Positions 18,790 through 63,444 of a stretch of DNA of 64,000 bases are shown here, piece after piece (within the stretch, counting starts at the first letter, position 1; each line of letters starts with the position of its first letter). Under the pieces are notes generated by a model. The model did not search any database. It was not told where the DNA came from and worked only from the letters and a program-made list of their open reading frames with translations. This DNA is from Candidatus Altiarchaeota archaeon (lineage in GTDB: Archaea > Altiarchaeota > Altiarchaeia > IMC4 > SCGC-AAA252-I15): assembly GCA_043800255.1 (NCBI GenBank), contig JAZDNF010000008.1, positions 1 to 64,000 of the forward strand, read 5' to 3'. Made by a program: the position numbers and the translations under genes.

Positions 18790-19059
18790 GTGATCCCAAC
18801 GCAAAAAACGAGGTCTAAGCCCAGGGTAATGGAGAAGGAGCCTGCTGAAAAGGAACTCCATGATGAGTTAATCCTGCAGGAGATCAAGCCCATGTCGCCG
18901 GTTGATGCCCTGGAGACTGAGAAGAAGCTTAAGCCTACGAGCGAATTCTACGCGTCAAACAGGAAGCAGAGGATTTCGGCTGATGGGAGCGATGATAGCG
19001 ACTCTGACGATGACGGGAAATCCCAGAAGAAGACTGTTTCAGGGGACGAGAAAGGGTAA
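18790..19059 (+). CDS. Hypothetical low-complexity protein
   Basis: 89-aa hydrophilic ORF with acidic tail; start uncertain. Confidence 0.45.
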   Translation: MIPTQKTRSKPRVMEKEPAEKELHDELILQEIKPMSPVDALETEKKLKPTSEFYASNRKQRISADGSDDSDSDDDGKSQKKTVSGDEKG

Positions 19060-19090
19060 TTGTCTTGTAGGATACATCTATCCAACTAGA

Positions 19091-19106
19091 GAAAACTTTT
19101 TATATA
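19091..19106 (+). promoter_or_regulatory. BRE/TATA promoter of the candidate ncRNA
   Basis: GAAAACTTTTTATATA ~25 nt upstream of the 14-bp closing stem. Confidence 0.6.
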
Positions 19107-19127
19107 CTCAAACGTATAGTTAATTCC

Positions 19128-19339
19128 TCTCTAAAAGAGTGTGGGGATATTAGGCGTCCCATTGGATGACATCCCATAGGATAACATTTATAGGGATTTA
19201 TCCAGTCGGCTTCGGCTGAGTACTCGTAAGAGTGATGCGATGTTAACCTCAGTCTAGAACTGGTGGTTAGCTGATGGGAGCCATTCTCGGATGGCGGGTT
19301 CCTAGAACCCAGCTTAACCCTATATCGCTCTTTTGGAGA
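19128..19339 (+). ncRNA. Candidate structured ncRNA, family unknown
   Basis: 14-bp terminal stem with G-U pairs on the + strand, several internal helices, upstream TATA, downstream T-tract, no ORF. Confidence 0.6.
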
Positions 19340-19457
19340 ATTTTCTATTTTTGTTTGTCTGCCTTCCTCTGATTTTTATTTCCTGAATACTATAGTATAC
19401 TCTGGTCGGGGGTGATTGGTTTTTCGTCCGACATCAGCGGGTATACTCATTGTCAAA

Positions 19458-20969
19458 ATGAAGGCAGCAATACTTGCGGGAGGATTAGGCACAAGGCTCA
19501 GACCTCTCACTTTCACAAAGTCCAAGCCGATGATACCGCTCGTCAACAGTCCGGTGATAGAGCACATAATAGCATACCTGAAGAGCCATAGGATACGGGA
19601 CATTGCGATAACGACAAACTACCGGAGGGATGAGCTGATAGGTCACCTTGGCACAGGCGACAGATACGGTGTCAGACTATCATACCCTGTCGAGGAGACT
19701 CCTCTGGGGACTGCAGGCTCTGTCAAGAACATAGAGGGCTATTTTGACAGGACGTTTGTCGTGATACAGGGCGACAACATAACCGACATAAACCTGAGAG
19801 ACCTCATAAAGTTCCATAAGAAGTCCGGCGGCTTGTGCACAATCGCAGTTAAAAAGGTTGAGGACTCCGCCAAGTACGGTGTTGTTAGAATGGACGACCA
19901 CGGCATGGTCACCGAATTCATCGAAAAACCGGGCAATGGTCTGAAGCACAATCTCATAAACACTGGGCTCTATGTGATGGAGCCTGGAATATTCGAATAC
20001 ATCCCGAAGAACCAGTTCTTCGACTTCTCAAGAGACCTTTTTCCCGTCATGAAGGAGAAGGGCCTGCTCTACGGGAAGCGGATGAGCGGCTTTTGGTCTG
20101 ACATCGGAGACCCATCAGGTTACAAAGCAGCCCAGAGTTGGATGCTGCAAAACCTGGAGGAGTCGCATATGGACTATCCAAACGTCGAGATCAGGAATGC
20201 CGTTCACGTGGGCGACAACGTCAGTCTTGGGAATGGCACAATGGTAATCGGGCCGGTTGCGATTGATGACGACACGATTATAGAGGATGACTGCATGATA
20301 GGTCCGAACACTATGATAAGCAGGGGAAGCGTGATAAAGTCTGGAACATGCATCCTGGGTTCGGTGTTCTTCAACAACGTCAGAATAGGCGAAAAATCCC
20401 ATACCGAAGGGTGCATGGTGGCAGAAGACTGCACTATAGGCTATGGCAGCACCATCCAGACGAACGCCATGATAGGCTCAAACTGCAGGATAGGATACGG
20501 CGTGGACATCATGAAAGACTCGAGGATATGGCCTGGCATGGAGATATCGGCTGGCACGGAGATCAATGGAACGTTTAGGAGATTCCAGCCGGTGCATTTC
20601 GTTAACGATGAGATCGCATGGAGGTTGCGAGGGTTGTCACAGGATGAGGCGTTCTACTTCAACAAGTGCGAGAACAATGCCATGATGTTCACAGGCCGCA
20701 AGGCGTTCTCGCTCAAGGAGTTCAGGGACATCCTGAAGGACATAGAAACCAGCTCTGTCAGCCACCATCTGAGGTATGATATAAACGACTTCAGTGATTG
20801 GATTAGGAAAGTTATATGCGACGCCAGGCTGGCCGACGACCTTGAACGTGTGAAAAGAGAGGTCGGCGTCGGCGCCCAGGATGATGTCCTCAGGAGCAGA
20901 CTGGTTAAGAGGACAACGAACAGGCTATATGATCTTGTATGCGAGTCTACTTCCCACCTAAAAAGCTGA
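19458..20969 (+). CDS. NDP-sugar pyrophosphorylase (mannose-1-P guanylyltransferase-like) with LbH and C-terminal DUF5752-like domain
   Basis: LAGGLGTRLRPLT, PLGTAG, WSDIG, hexapeptides; tail FYF..A.SL.EF..HH..NDFS.WI. Confidence 0.85.
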   Translation: MKAAILAGGLGTRLRPLTFTKSKPMIPLVNSPVIEHIIAYLKSHRIRDIAITTNYRRDELIGHLGTGDRYGVRLSYPVEETPLGTAGSVKNIEGYFDRTFVVIQGDNITDINLRDLIKFHKKSGGLCTIAVKKVEDSAKYGVVRMDDHGMVTEFIEKPGNGLKHNLINTGLYVMEPGIFEYIPKNQFFDFSRDLFPVMKEKGLLYGKRMSGFWSDIGDPSGYKAAQSWMLQNLEESHMDYPNVEIRNAVHVGDNVSLGNGTMVIGPVAIDDDTIIEDDCMIGPNTMISRGSVIKSGTCILGSVFFNNVRIGEKSHTEGCMVAEDCTIGYGSTIQTNAMIGSNCRIGYGVDIMKDSRIWPGMEISAGTEINGTFRRFQPVHFVNDEIAWRLRGLSQDEAFYFNKCENNAMMFTGRKAFSLKEFRDILKDIETSSVSHHLRYDINDFSDWIRKVICDARLADDLERVKREVGVGAQDDVLRSRLVKRTTNRLYDLVCESTSHLKS

Positions 20970-63259: not shown

Positions 63260-63444
63260 TGCCGAAGGCGGGACTCGAACCCGCGACCTCCAGATAACTC
63301 AGCGTTATCGTGAAATCTTCCCTAGCCTTTGGCTACGGTGCCCGGCCCCAAAATTTTTTCTTTGGGGGTGAAGCACCTTTCTTTTCATAAAAGAAAGGGG
63401 CTCGCTTATGAGTCTGGCACTCTGCGCTACTGAGCTACTTCGGC
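63260..63444 (-). tRNA. Elongator tRNA-Met(CAT) with 111-nt canonical intron (63296-63406)
   Basis: GCCGAAG/CTTCGGC, A73, CCAGA-CTCATA|A-TCTGG, BHB CTCA/TGAG. Confidence 0.88.

What the first reader, a model, noticed from the sequence alone, without database searches (positions are those of the whole stretch)
19128..19339. Candidate novel ~210-nt multi-helix ncRNA with its own promoter and terminator
Seen: a 14-bp closing stem (19128-41/19326-39, two G-U pairs on +) and TATAGGG/CCCTATA (19189-95/19318-24). Further helices are CCAGT/ACTGG, GGCTGAG/CTCAGTC, an ACTC-GTAA-GAGT GNRA hairpin, and hairpins at 19280-95 and 19296-310. Possible pseudoknots are TAACATT/GATGTTA and TCCCAT/ATGGGA. A BRE-TATA lies ~25 nt upstream and a T-tract directly downstream. 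There is no RNase P GAGGAAAG motif or SRP helix-8 motif. Inference: a stand-alone structured RNA or ribozyme of unknown family.
Basis: partly seen in the sequence, partly recalled or inferred. Interest (0 to 1): 0.75.

Follow-up and report, generated by a model that had tools for sequence, protein, structure and literature searches.

The report
Circular structured RNA gene in Altiarchaeota
This is a small stand-alone archaeal gene whose transcript appears to be cut at a tRNA-intron-type motif and closed into a 175-nucleotide, highly folded RNA circle of a family not described before, whose role in the cell is still unknown.

Summary
The feature is real, on the + strand, and matches no Rfam family. 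The genome has ordinary RNase P, SRP and 5S RNA genes elsewhere. Covariance-model searches found homologues in 20 of 61 Altiarchaeota genomes (families f1, f3, f4) and in metagenome contigs. Covariation is strong: 50 of 64 pairs show changes on both sides.

Together with GGGG/CCCT and two 3-nt bulges it forms a canonical helix-bulge-helix-bulge-helix (BHB) motif. All 30 homologues keep it.

Contigs from two groundwater metatranscriptome runs join 19321 back to 19147, which gives a 175-nt circle. That junction matches canonical BHB cleavage (circle 19149-19323). DNA contigs run straight through both sites. The genome encodes the splicing endonuclease EndA and the ligase RtcB.

Closing the circle turns CCCTATA into a 7-nt hairpin loop complementary to the TATAGGG loop of helix P5. 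This is a likely kissing contact that spans the ligation joint.

Several copies are tandem. Only the first copy of each pair has a TATA box, which fits excision of each unit.

Verdict: a new family of stand-alone, BHB-matured circular structured RNA. Biogenesis is well supported. The cellular function is inferred only: a trans-acting RNP or ribozyme-like RNA.

The parts
19097..19106 (+). TATA box (TTTTTATATA) preceded by a purine-rich BRE-like stretch at 19090-19096. The expected transcription start is near 19124-19130.
   Evidence: Sequence. A TATA-like hexamer lies 28-57 nt upstream in 26 of 30 homologous copies. The 4 without one are all the downstream member of a tandem pair.
19128..19141 (+). 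5' strand of processing stem P1, the outer helix h of the BHB. It is removed from the mature RNA.
   Evidence: Pairs with 19326-19339. Only the inner 4 bp are conserved in homologues, and they covary (helix 1: 92.5% paired, 3 of 4 pairs with changes on both sides).
19143..19146 (+). GGGG, the 5' strand of the central 4-bp helix H of the BHB.
   Evidence: Pairs with CCCT 19318-19321. Paired in 100% of cells in 30 sequences, with one compensatory G-C to A-U change (helix 2).
19147..19149 (+). 5' three-nucleotide bulge (ATA). The canonical cut falls after 19148.
   Evidence: Three nucleotides in 30 of 30 homologues. The third letter is A in 29 of 30.
19149..19323 (+). Mature 175-nt circular RNA.
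   Evidence: RNA contigs of runs X5 and X6 join 19321 back to 19147, with 4 ambiguous letters. Canonical BHB cuts give 19149-19323, which is 175 nt with the identical junction sequence.
19150..19155 (+). P2 5' strand (inner helix h' of the BHB). It pairs with 19312-19317.
   Evidence: Helix 3: 95% paired, 5 of 6 pairs with changes on both sides.
19157..19162 (+). P3 5' strand (TCCCAT). It pairs with ATGGGA at 19274-19279.
   Evidence: Helices 4-5: all 8 pairs have changes on both sides.
19168..19177 (+). P4 5' strand (GACATCCCAT). It pairs with 19235-19244 around a conserved C-pyrimidine mismatch. This is the most conserved part of the RNA.
   Evidence: Helix 6: 95.9% paired, 6 of 7 pairs with changes on both sides. 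See also the invariant columns.
19179..19203 (+). P5 hairpin. Its loop carries TATAGGG (19189-19195), complementary to the loop made by circularisation.
   Evidence: Covarying stem (helix 7). Loop complementarity is tested.
19206..19219 (+). P6 hairpin with a UUCG loop.
   Evidence: Helix 8: 6 of 6 pairs with changes on both sides.
19221..19234 (+). P7 hairpin. It stacks directly on the P4 3' strand (GAGTGATGCGATG).
   Evidence: Helix 9: 90.6% paired.
19235..19244 (+). P4 3' strand.
   Evidence: See the P4 5' strand entry.
19247..19266 (+). P8 hairpin. It is shorter here than in most homologues.
   Evidence: Helix 10: 90.6% paired.
19274..19279 (+). P3 3' strand.
19280..19295 (+). P9 hairpin.
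   Evidence: Helices 11-12. The natural variant T>C at 19285, seen in runs X6 and X1, turns a U-G pair into C-G.
19296..19310 (+). P10 hairpin. Its loop is A-rich in most homologues.
   Evidence: Helix 13.
19312..19317 (+). P2 3' strand.
19318..19324 (+). CCCT (H 3' strand) followed by the 3' three-nucleotide bulge ATA. The canonical cut falls after 19323. After ligation these letters form the 7-nt loop that caps P2.
19326..19339 (+). 3' strand of processing stem P1. It is removed.
19341..19352 (+). T-tracts (TTTT, TTTTT), a likely archaeal terminator.
   Evidence: Sequence. A run of 4 or more T lies within 45 nt downstream in 15 of 30 copies.

Best explanation
An independent gene of an Altiarchaeota genome makes a precursor of about 215-230 nt from its own TATA promoter.

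The two ends of the precursor pair into a stem that holds a canonical helix-bulge-helix-bulge-helix motif:
- outer helix P1;
- a 3-nt bulge on the 3' strand;
- a 4-bp helix, GGGG/CCCT;
- a 3-nt bulge on the 5' strand;
- inner helix P2.

The tRNA-splicing endonuclease EndA cuts in both bulges, and an RNA ligase (RtcB) closes the excised part into a 175-nt circle, 19149-19323.

The circle folds into about nine helices (P2-P10) around two multi-helix junctions.

Removing the 5' GGGG frees CCCT. Ligation turns CCCTAT plus the conserved A of the 5' bulge into a 7-nt hairpin loop on P2. That loop can kiss the TATAGGG loop of P5. So the final tertiary fold would need both excision and closure.

What is shown:
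- the structure and its covariation;
- the BHB anatomy in all homologues;
- the circular junction in RNA data;
- the presence of the enzyme genes.

What is inferred:
- that EndA and RtcB do the work;
- that the kissing loop forms;
- that the circle is the working form, a trans-acting, exonuclease-proof RNP scaffold or ribozyme-like RNA with a housekeeping or regulatory role in families f1, f3 and f4.
For: Structure:
- The + strand folds far better than shuffles (z = -5.88).
- In 30 homologues, 87.3% of cells are paired against 74.0 +/- 0.6% in shuffles (0 of 500 reach it).
- 50 of 64 pairs show changes on both sides.
- Slid-partner controls give 34-45% paired.

BHB motif:
- 30 of 30 copies have a 4-bp H flanked by two 3-nt bulges on opposite strands, with the same handedness as tRNA introns.
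- H is paired in 100% of cells.

Circle:
- 205-nt RNA contigs in two metatranscriptome runs of one study consist of 19254-19321 joined to 19147-19283.
- Contig depths are 22.9 and 5.4. One contig is identical to the window and one is a variant.
- 205 = 175 + 30, the wrap-around expected from a 31-mer assembly.
- The DNA contig of run X1 and the genome assembly are colinear across both sites.
- Canonical cuts reproduce the junction sequence exactly.
- An alternative 5-bp H register would give 176 nt and a different junction.

Enzymes:
- EndA: 179-aa frame, 109.7 bits.
- RtcB: 582 bits.

Independent gene:
- TATA-like hexamer upstream of 26 of 30 copies.
- Neighbours vary.
- In tandem pairs only the first copy has a TATA box. 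Per-unit excision explains this.

Kissing loop:
- 5 or more contiguous pairs in 19 of 30 copies, against a mean of 3.1 and a maximum of 8 with shuffled loops (1000 shuffles).
- The best complement anywhere in the circle lies in the P5 loop in 21 of 30 copies.
- Compensating changes occur in L054 (CCCUAAA with UUUGGGG) and L051 (CCCC with AUGG).

Not a known RNA.
Against: - The RNA evidence is assembled contigs, not raw reads. It comes from two runs of one study. It gives no strand, no ends and no ratio of circle to linear precursor.
- The junction has a 4-letter ambiguity, so the exact cut is inferred from the motif.
- The alignment used for pair counts was fitted to the model structure, so it leans towards that structure.
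- The kissing loop is weak or absent in 7-9 of 30 copies. Examples are both G004 copies, where CCCC has no compensating loop change, and the f3 copies L052 and L053.
- No partner protein, ligand, target or activity is known, so the functional part is inference.
- The RNA was not found in families f5, f8 and f9, so it is not essential to the whole phylum.
Confidence: 0.75

Rival explanations
1. The working molecule is the linear ~210-nt RNA closed by the long stem. The circle would be a minor by-product or a step in decay.
For: The full precursor, stem included, folds very stably. Circular forms of 5S, RNase P and SRP RNAs in other archaea have been read as side or decay products (passages of PMC12558985 read).
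Against: - Only the circle was recovered in the RNA contigs, and no contig covered the stem. Lack of cover is only weak evidence.
- The long stem is peculiar to this genome. In homologues only 4-6 bp of P1 remain, while the exact BHB geometry is kept in 30 of 30.
- Promoter-less downstream copies in tandem pairs need excision to become separate units.
Confidence: 0.1
2. An orphan intron: a selfish or relic BHB-bounded element in a vestigial host transcript, with no function of its own.
For: It has the same excision signals as tRNA and rRNA introns. There are multiple and tandem copies in some genomes. The flanking exons form only a short hairpin.
Against: - The interior, not just the BHB, is conserved. 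Compensatory changes occur in every helix across three families.
- The most conserved letters lie in P4, P7 and P8.
- Each independent copy has its own promoter.
- There is no homing endonuclease or other mobility gene nearby.
Confidence: 0.05
3. A divergent or circularly permuted member of a known RNA family (RNase P, SRP, 5S, an rRNA fragment, H/ACA or C/D sRNA), as with the permuted SRP RNA of Thermoproteus.
For: There is a precedent for BHB circularisation restoring a known RNA (PMC4731332, title and start of abstract seen). By eye, GGGGAAAUC and the ...CCCNGCUUR stretch before the 3' BHB strand loosely recall RNase P conserved regions CR-I and CR-V (recalled from memory).
Against: - Canonical RNase P RNA (98.4 bits), SRP RNA (132.4 bits) and 5S rRNA (77.7 bits) are present elsewhere in the same genome.
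- RNaseP-T gives no hit.
- No Rfam match at E up to 10 on the locus or at E up to 5 across three tandem loci, where a permuted match could span two units.
- ARAGORN finds nothing on the doubled circle.
- C/D-like words (CUGA) are not conserved.
Confidence: 0.03
4. The 'circle' is an artefact: a 175-bp tandem duplication in the DNA of the sampled strains, DNA carry-over, or template switching or mis-assembly in the RNA libraries.
For: Tandem copies of this gene do exist in other genomes. Only contigs were examined, and RNA libraries can contain DNA (warning).
Against: - Real tandem copies keep the spacer and both BHB flanks and are diverged. The observed joint lies exactly in the two bulges and loses the flanks.
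- The flanking genes have no RNA-run contigs, while the circle has depth 22.9 and 5.4.
- Two sequence variants show the same joint.
- The genome assembly and the DNA run are colinear.
Confidence: 0.05
5. A cis-acting leader or riboswitch of the downstream sugar-nucleotidyltransferase gene (19416-20969).
For: It lies 77 nt upstream of that gene on the same strand, and its fold is as complex as a riboswitch.
Against: Downstream genes differ between genomes (Ssb-like OB protein, radical SAM on the other strand, and others). T-tracts separate it from the gene. The RNA is excised as a circle.
Confidence: 0.02

Closest known systems
Circular SRP RNA of Thermoproteus (PMC4731332; only title and start of abstract seen; the rest recalled)
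   Same: A stand-alone structured non-coding RNA is matured by BHB cleavage and ligation into a circle, and the circle is the working form.
   Different: There the RNA is a known family (SRP) and the gene is permuted, so closure restores a known helix. Here the family is new, the gene is not permuted as far as can be told, and a canonical SRP RNA gene exists elsewhere in the genome.
Circular pre-16S and pre-23S rRNA intermediates of archaea (passages of PMC7714728 and PMC12558985)
   Same: Inverted repeats around a structured RNA form a processing stem with a BHB. EndA cuts and a ligase circularises.
   Different: rRNA circles are intermediates that are opened again. Here the 175-nt circle is the only form recovered, and its ligation joint lies in a conserved loop with a complementary partner loop.
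Circular tRNA introns, including the tRNA-Trp intron that is a C/D box guide RNA (passages of PMC7714728 and PMC12558985)
   Same: A canonical BHB with the same handedness, and a functional RNA carried inside the excised circle.
   Different: There is no tRNA host: the exons are a short hairpin. The interior is a 10-helix fold, not a C/D guide, and the gene has its own promoter.
BHB intron in the 5' UTR of Haloferax HVO_1309, and BHB-independent circles of C/D sRNAs, RNase P, 5S and omega RNAs
   Same: They show that archaeal EndA substrates and circular RNAs reach beyond tRNA and rRNA.
   Different: Those are small unstructured introns, or alternative forms of RNAs that also work as linear molecules. 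None is a dedicated gene for a folded circle.
Large bacterial structured RNAs of unknown function (raiA, OLE, ROOL, GOLLD; named from memory, raiA abstract seen)
   Same: A conserved, intricate fold with pseudoknot-like contacts, narrow phylogenetic range and no known function.
   Different: Those are bacterial and linear, with no sequence or Rfam relation.

Membership tests
Archaeal BHB (hBHBh') substrates of the splicing endonuclease | Two 3-nt bulges on opposite strands separated by exactly 4 bp | tested here: met
   Window: GGGG 19143-46 / CCCT 19318-21, with bulges at 19147-49 and 19322-24. 30 of 30 homologues keep the 3-4-3 arrangement, and H is 100% paired.
Archaeal BHB (hBHBh') substrates of the splicing endonuclease | Flanking helices h and h' on both sides | tested here: met
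   P1 is 92.5% paired and P2 is 95% paired, both with compensatory changes.
Archaeal BHB (hBHBh') substrates of the splicing endonuclease | Cleavage between the 2nd and 3rd bulge nucleotides, then ligation of the excised part into a circle (the cleavage rule is recalled from the tRNA-intron literature) | tested here: met
   The RNA contig joint 19321->19147 (+/- 4 letters) equals the junction predicted for cuts after 19148 and 19323, giving 175 nt. The exact phosphodiester bond is not resolved because of the 4-letter repeat.
Archaeal BHB (hBHBh') substrates of the splicing endonuclease | EndA and an RNA ligase are present in the organism | tested here: met
   tRNA_int_endo 109.7 bits, 179-aa frame. 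RtcB 582.1 bits.
Archaeal BHB (hBHBh') substrates of the splicing endonuclease | Processing depends on EndA | not testable with these tools
   Needs an in vitro cleavage assay or depletion of the enzyme.
RNase P RNA (archaeal, type T) | Match to the covariance model, with the CR-I to CR-V core and P4 | tested here: not met
   No RNase P family at E up to 10 on the locus. RNaseP-T has no hit in the genome. A canonical RNaseP_arch lies at C4:40207-40494, 98.4 bits.
Archaeal SRP RNA | Match to the covariance model, with the helix 8 motifs | tested here: not met
   No hit on the locus. A canonical SRP RNA lies at C15:21916-22190, 132.4 bits.
Hammerhead ribozyme (HH10) | Conserved catalytic core (CUGAUGA ... 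GAAA) and the family gathering score | tested here: not met
   20 bits against a gathering score of 75. The alignment lacks part of the core.
C/D box sRNA or K-turn RNA | C (RUGAUGA) and D (CUGA) boxes placed to form a K-turn | tested here: not met
   GUGAUG words are conserved but pair in P4. CUGA is present only in this genome and genus g9. sR22 scores 13.4 bits against 40. The K-turn was judged by eye only.
Riboswitch or cis-regulatory leader | Conserved position upstream of a functionally coherent set of genes | tested here: not met
   Downstream genes differ between genera. The RNA has its own T-tracts and is excised.

The most novel reading that the evidence does not exclude
This would be the first example of a gene whose sole product is an obligately circular, intricately folded RNA. 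Covalent closure by the tRNA-splicing machinery builds a loop that completes the tertiary fold by a kissing contact across the ligation joint. The RNA would then act as a new class of ribozyme or ligand- or protein-sensing core in Altiarchaeota. In that case circularisation would be a folding and activation switch rather than a mere by-product of processing.
Probability: 0.2. Interest if true: 0.95.

Novelty: new variant of a known kind. Interest (0 to 1): 0.82.

Why it matters
Known substrates of the archaeal splicing endonuclease are tRNA introns, rRNA precursors, a few mRNA introns and one permuted SRP RNA. A conserved, promoter-driven gene that exists only to be excised and closed into a folded 175-nt circle widens that list. 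It would also give a natural case where circular topology seems built into the RNA's architecture.

It adds a new structured RNA family for a poorly known, uncultivated phylum. It offers a compact natural BHB scaffold for making stable circular RNAs. It also sets a directly testable question: what does a cell do with a folded RNA circle?

Practically, genome annotation and RNA-family searches that assume linear molecules will miss or mis-bound such genes.

Tried and rejected
Searches that found nothing useful or gave false hits:
- BLAST of the locus against 61 related genomes gave one true homologue (G015) and two chance hits inside coding regions (L007, L008).
- The metagenome pattern hit L030 is a chance hit. 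It has no RNA features and no model match.
- Rfam at permissive E-values on the locus and on three tandem loci, looking for a permuted known family: nothing credible.
- ARAGORN on the doubled circle found nothing.
- The search of earlier findings returned nothing in three look-ups.

Readings made by eye and dropped:
- A K-turn or C/D-box reading of GAGUGAUG, because the partner letters are not conserved.
- An RNase P CR-I/CR-V resemblance, because canonical RNase P is present and no model hit exists.

Structure work that fell short:
- RNAalifold on the two-sequence and twelve-sequence MAFFT alignments missed P3 and P5 because of misalignment.
- MAFFT alignment A9 of all 30 copies did not align the P5 loop well enough for the count of structure pairs on the kissing pairs. 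Per-sequence complementarity with shuffles was used instead.

Sequencing runs:
- RNA run X7 gave no contig.
- The RNA runs gave no contigs over the flanks 18800-19146 and 19322-19700. This is not evidence of absence.

Paralogues and neighbours:
- A tree of 26 copies did not resolve two ancient paralogue types. I left out G005, G010, G006 and G001b as partial or very divergent. Copies of one genome often group together.
- Neighbour analysis found only lineage-level synteny: DUF357 upstream in 6 loci and an Ssb-like OB protein downstream in 6 loci, out of 27 loci examined.

Literature:
- Searches for Altiarchaeota with splicing endonuclease (0 papers) and with circular RNA (1 unrelated paper) found no prior description. 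The search did not require the Altiarchaeota term, so none of its 25 listed papers mentions the phylum and it is no test of prior description. The search, which likewise did not require the DPANN term, found nothing relevant among its 12 listed papers.
- Supplementary files of papers were not consulted.

Full report
**What is in the sequence**

The region 19128-19339 lies between a small unassigned ORF (18790-19059) and a sugar-nucleotidyltransferase gene (19416-20969). A TATA box (TTTTTATATA, 19097-19106) precedes it and T-tracts (19341-44, 19348-52) follow it.

The + strand folds to -92.1 kcal/mol. Shuffles average -62.8, so z = -5.88, and 0 of 200 shuffles fold as well. The - strand reaches only z = -2.30.

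**Not a known RNA**

Rfam at gathering scores finds only a tRNA elsewhere in the window (63260-63444, minus strand, with a 113-nt insertion). At E up to 10 the locus gives only noise; the best hit is Hammerhead_HH10 at 20 bits against a gathering score of 75.

The window's genome (1.75 Mb, 93% complete) has these RNA genes elsewhere:
- a canonical archaeal RNase P RNA, 98.4 bits;
- SRP RNA, 132.4 bits;
- 5S rRNA, 77.7 bits;
- no type-T RNase P.

**Homologues and organism**

BLAST against 61 related genomes found one true relative (G015) and two chance hits in coding DNA.

A single-sequence covariance model (R1) found the RNA in 10 of 21 genomes of the same family, G000 included.

A degenerate pattern taken from the alignment hit 8 stretches in 6 public archaeal MAG records. 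Three of these are titled Candidatus Altiarchaeales or Altiarchaeota, and several are the same genomes as the family members found before. So the window comes from the phylum Altiarchaeota, by inference from its relatives.

The same pattern hit 7 metagenome contigs. The model confirmed 6 of them and 1 was a chance hit.

A second model built from 21 copies (R2) found the RNA in 20 of the 61 genomes held for the phylum:

| Family | Genomes with a match |
|---|---|
| f1 | 15 of 20, plus G000 |
| f3 | 2 of 2 |
| f4 | 1 of 1 |
| f5 | 1 doubtful hit in 22 (15 bits) |
| f2 | 0 of 1 |
| f6 | 0 of 1 |
| f7 | 0 of 1 |
| f8 | 0 of 4 |
| f9 | 0 of 8 |

A repeat with laxer filters on five well-assembled genomes of f5, f7, f8 and f9 found nothing better than E = 0.7. 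Many of these genomes are incomplete, so 'not found' does not mean 'absent'.

**Secondary structure**

On 30 copies aligned to R2, the 64 modelled pairs behave as follows:
- 87.3% of cells are paired, against 74.0 +/- 0.6% in shuffles (0 of 500 shuffles reach it).
- 50 pairs have changes on both sides, against 34.7 +/- 2.8 in shuffles (0 of 500).
- With the 3' partners slid by 1-3 columns, only 34-45% of cells are paired.

The alignment was fitted to the model, which favours it. However, the same helices are visible in the MAFFT alignments made without the model.

The fold has an outer stem P1, a 4-bp helix H, and then P2 and P3. P4 closes a junction holding hairpins P5, P6 and P7. P8 is a hairpin. 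Hairpins P9 and P10 lie between the 3' strands of P3 and P2.

Their letters belong to P6, P8 and P4.

**The key anatomy: a BHB motif**

Reading inward on the 5' strand, P1 is followed by GGGG (19143-46), a 3-nt bulge (19147-49) and P2. On the 3' strand, P2 is followed by CCCT (19318-21), a 3-nt bulge (19322-24) and P1.

That is a canonical helix-bulge-helix-bulge-helix motif with the handedness of archaeal tRNA introns. All 30 copies keep 3-nt, 4-bp, 3-nt. H is paired in 100% of cells and has one compensatory GGAG/CUCC variant.

The genome encodes a splicing endonuclease (179-aa frame, 109.7 bits) and RtcB (582 bits).

**RNA evidence for a circle**

Of seven public runs sharing words with the locus, two groundwater metatranscriptome runs (X5 and X6, one study) held part of it.

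Laid on 18800-19700, each gave one 205-nt contig made of 19254-19321 joined to 19147-19283. This is a joint that 'goes back 175', with 4 letters fitting either side.
- X5: depth 22.9, no mismatches.
- X6: depth 5.4, a variant with 4 differences.

205 = 175 + 30, which is what a 31-mer assembler prints for a 175-nt cycle. A DNA-run contig (X1) runs colinearly from 18967 to 19410, as does the genome assembly itself.

Cutting each bulge after its second nucleotide (the rule for tRNA introns, recalled) gives a circle of 19149-19323. That is 175 nt, and its junction sequence is identical to the observed one. The other possible register in this genome, a 5-bp H, would give 176 nt and a different junction, so the data exclude it.

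Limits of this evidence:
- These are contigs, not reads.
- Both RNA runs come from one study.
- There is no strand information.
- There is no estimate of circle against precursor.

**Independent gene, and the tandem copies**

A TATA-like hexamer lies 28-57 nt upstream of 26 of 30 copies. The other 4 are all the second member of a tandem pair (G004, G013, G018 and one metagenome contig), which follows the first copy after about 9-30 nt.

Per-unit excision at each copy's own BHB explains how a promoter-less second copy can yield a separate RNA.

A run of 4 or more T follows within 45 nt in 15 of 30 copies.

Neighbouring genes vary. A DUF357 protein lies upstream in 6 loci and an Ssb-like OB-fold protein downstream in 6 loci, of the 27 loci examined. 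The rest differ, including this window.

G001, G002 and G012 have two unlinked copies. Copies of one genome often group together in a tree of 26 copies (G002a/b 89/80, G018a/b 100/98). Four partial or very divergent rows were left out of that tree.

**A fold that needs closure**

After excision the 5' GGGG is gone. CCCT, the first two bulge letters and the A from the 5' bulge (A in 29 of 30 copies) become a 7-nt loop capping P2.

Across the 30 copies:
- The P5 loop offers 5 or more contiguous pairs in 19 copies and 4 or more in 23. Shuffled loops average 3.1 (maximum 8) and 11.9 (maximum 21) over 1000 shuffles.
- The longest complement to the junction loop anywhere in the circle lies in the P5 loop in 21 copies, and uniquely so in 13.

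Compensating changes occur in L054 (CCCUAAA with UUUGGGG) and L051 (CCCC with AUGG).

Against this: both G004 copies have CCCC without a compensating loop change. The f3 copies and some very divergent ones lack the complementary loop altogether.

The copies are related, so these counts are not probabilities. I rate the kissing loop as likely but unproven.

**What it does**

The biogenesis is the well-supported part: transcription, EndA cuts at the BHB, ligation to a circle.

The function is inferred. These features point to a trans-acting RNA that binds a conserved partner or has an activity of its own, made exonuclease-proof by closure:
- an intricate conserved fold;
- invariant letters concentrated in P4, P7 and P8, kept even where the kissing loop is lost;
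- its own promoter;
- one or two copies per genome.

It is not a leader of the downstream gene, and it is not a plain intron. Its absence from f5, f8 and f9 shows that the phylum as a whole does not depend on it.

**Comparison with what is known**

Passages read in PMC7714728 list only tRNA introns, rRNAs and one 5' UTR intron among BHB-flanked circles in Haloferax.

PMC12558985 and PMC3326292 list the classes of archaeal circular RNA: rRNA intermediates, tRNA introns, C/D sRNAs, 5S, SRP, RNase P and omega RNAs.

PMC4731332 (listing and start of abstract only) describes a permuted SRP RNA restored by circularisation.

Searches combining Altiarchaeota with splicing endonuclease (0 papers) and with circular RNA (1 unrelated paper) found no description of this RNA. 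The searches did not require the Altiarchaeota or DPANN term, listed only 25 and 12 of many thousands of papers, and none of those listed was relevant, so they test little. Supplementary files were not seen.

I therefore file it as a new RNA family and a new variant of a known kind of processing: a dedicated gene for a folded circular RNA.

Noticed in passing
window 63260-63444 (-): A tRNA gene (anticodon loop reads CAU) has a 113-nt insertion at the anticodon loop (Rfam tRNA, 52.6 bits). ARAGORN reports no tRNA in the whole window. A long intron fits an organism with active BHB splicing. I did not examine the intron for an embedded small RNA.
   Followed up: partly
L013:1844-2260, L010:1791-2210 and four more loci; L012:1042-1308 and five more loci: An Ssb-like OB-fold protein gene lies directly downstream of the RNA gene in 6 loci, and a DUF357 small protein gene lies directly upstream in 6 loci, of the 27 loci examined (genera g2, g3, g5 and metagenome contigs). 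This may be plain synteny or a hint of a partner protein. It is not so in this window.
   Followed up: partly
L017:1497-1924 (-), L018:1286-1710 (+), L023:4446-4859 (+), L033: Tandem pairs of diverged copies sit 9-30 nt apart, and only the first has a promoter. They occur in the three genus g5 genomes G004, G013 and G018 and on further metagenome contigs (L032, which repeats the G018 pair, and L033).
   Followed up: yes
L064:1501-1675 (+), second copy in G001: An AT-rich copy (39% G+C) keeps the BHB and P4 but lacks hairpin P8 and the GGG of the P5 loop. It may be a decaying copy.
   Followed up: no
between TATA box and P1 in many copies (e.g. L012, L024, L029, L035 upstream regions): A conserved GTAATAC-like word lies about 20-25 nt downstream of the TATA box and about 10 nt before P1. 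It may mark the transcription start region.
   Followed up: no
window 18790-19059 (+): An 89-aa ORF with a very acidic, serine/aspartate-rich tail has no Pfam match. I did not examine whether it is a real gene.
   Followed up: no
window 19416-20969 (+): A 517-aa protein combines a nucleotidyl-transferase domain, hexapeptide repeats and a C-terminal DUF5752.
   Followed up: no
window 19285: A natural T>C variant in RNA run X6 and DNA run X1 converts a U-G pair of hairpin P9 into C-G.
   Followed up: yes
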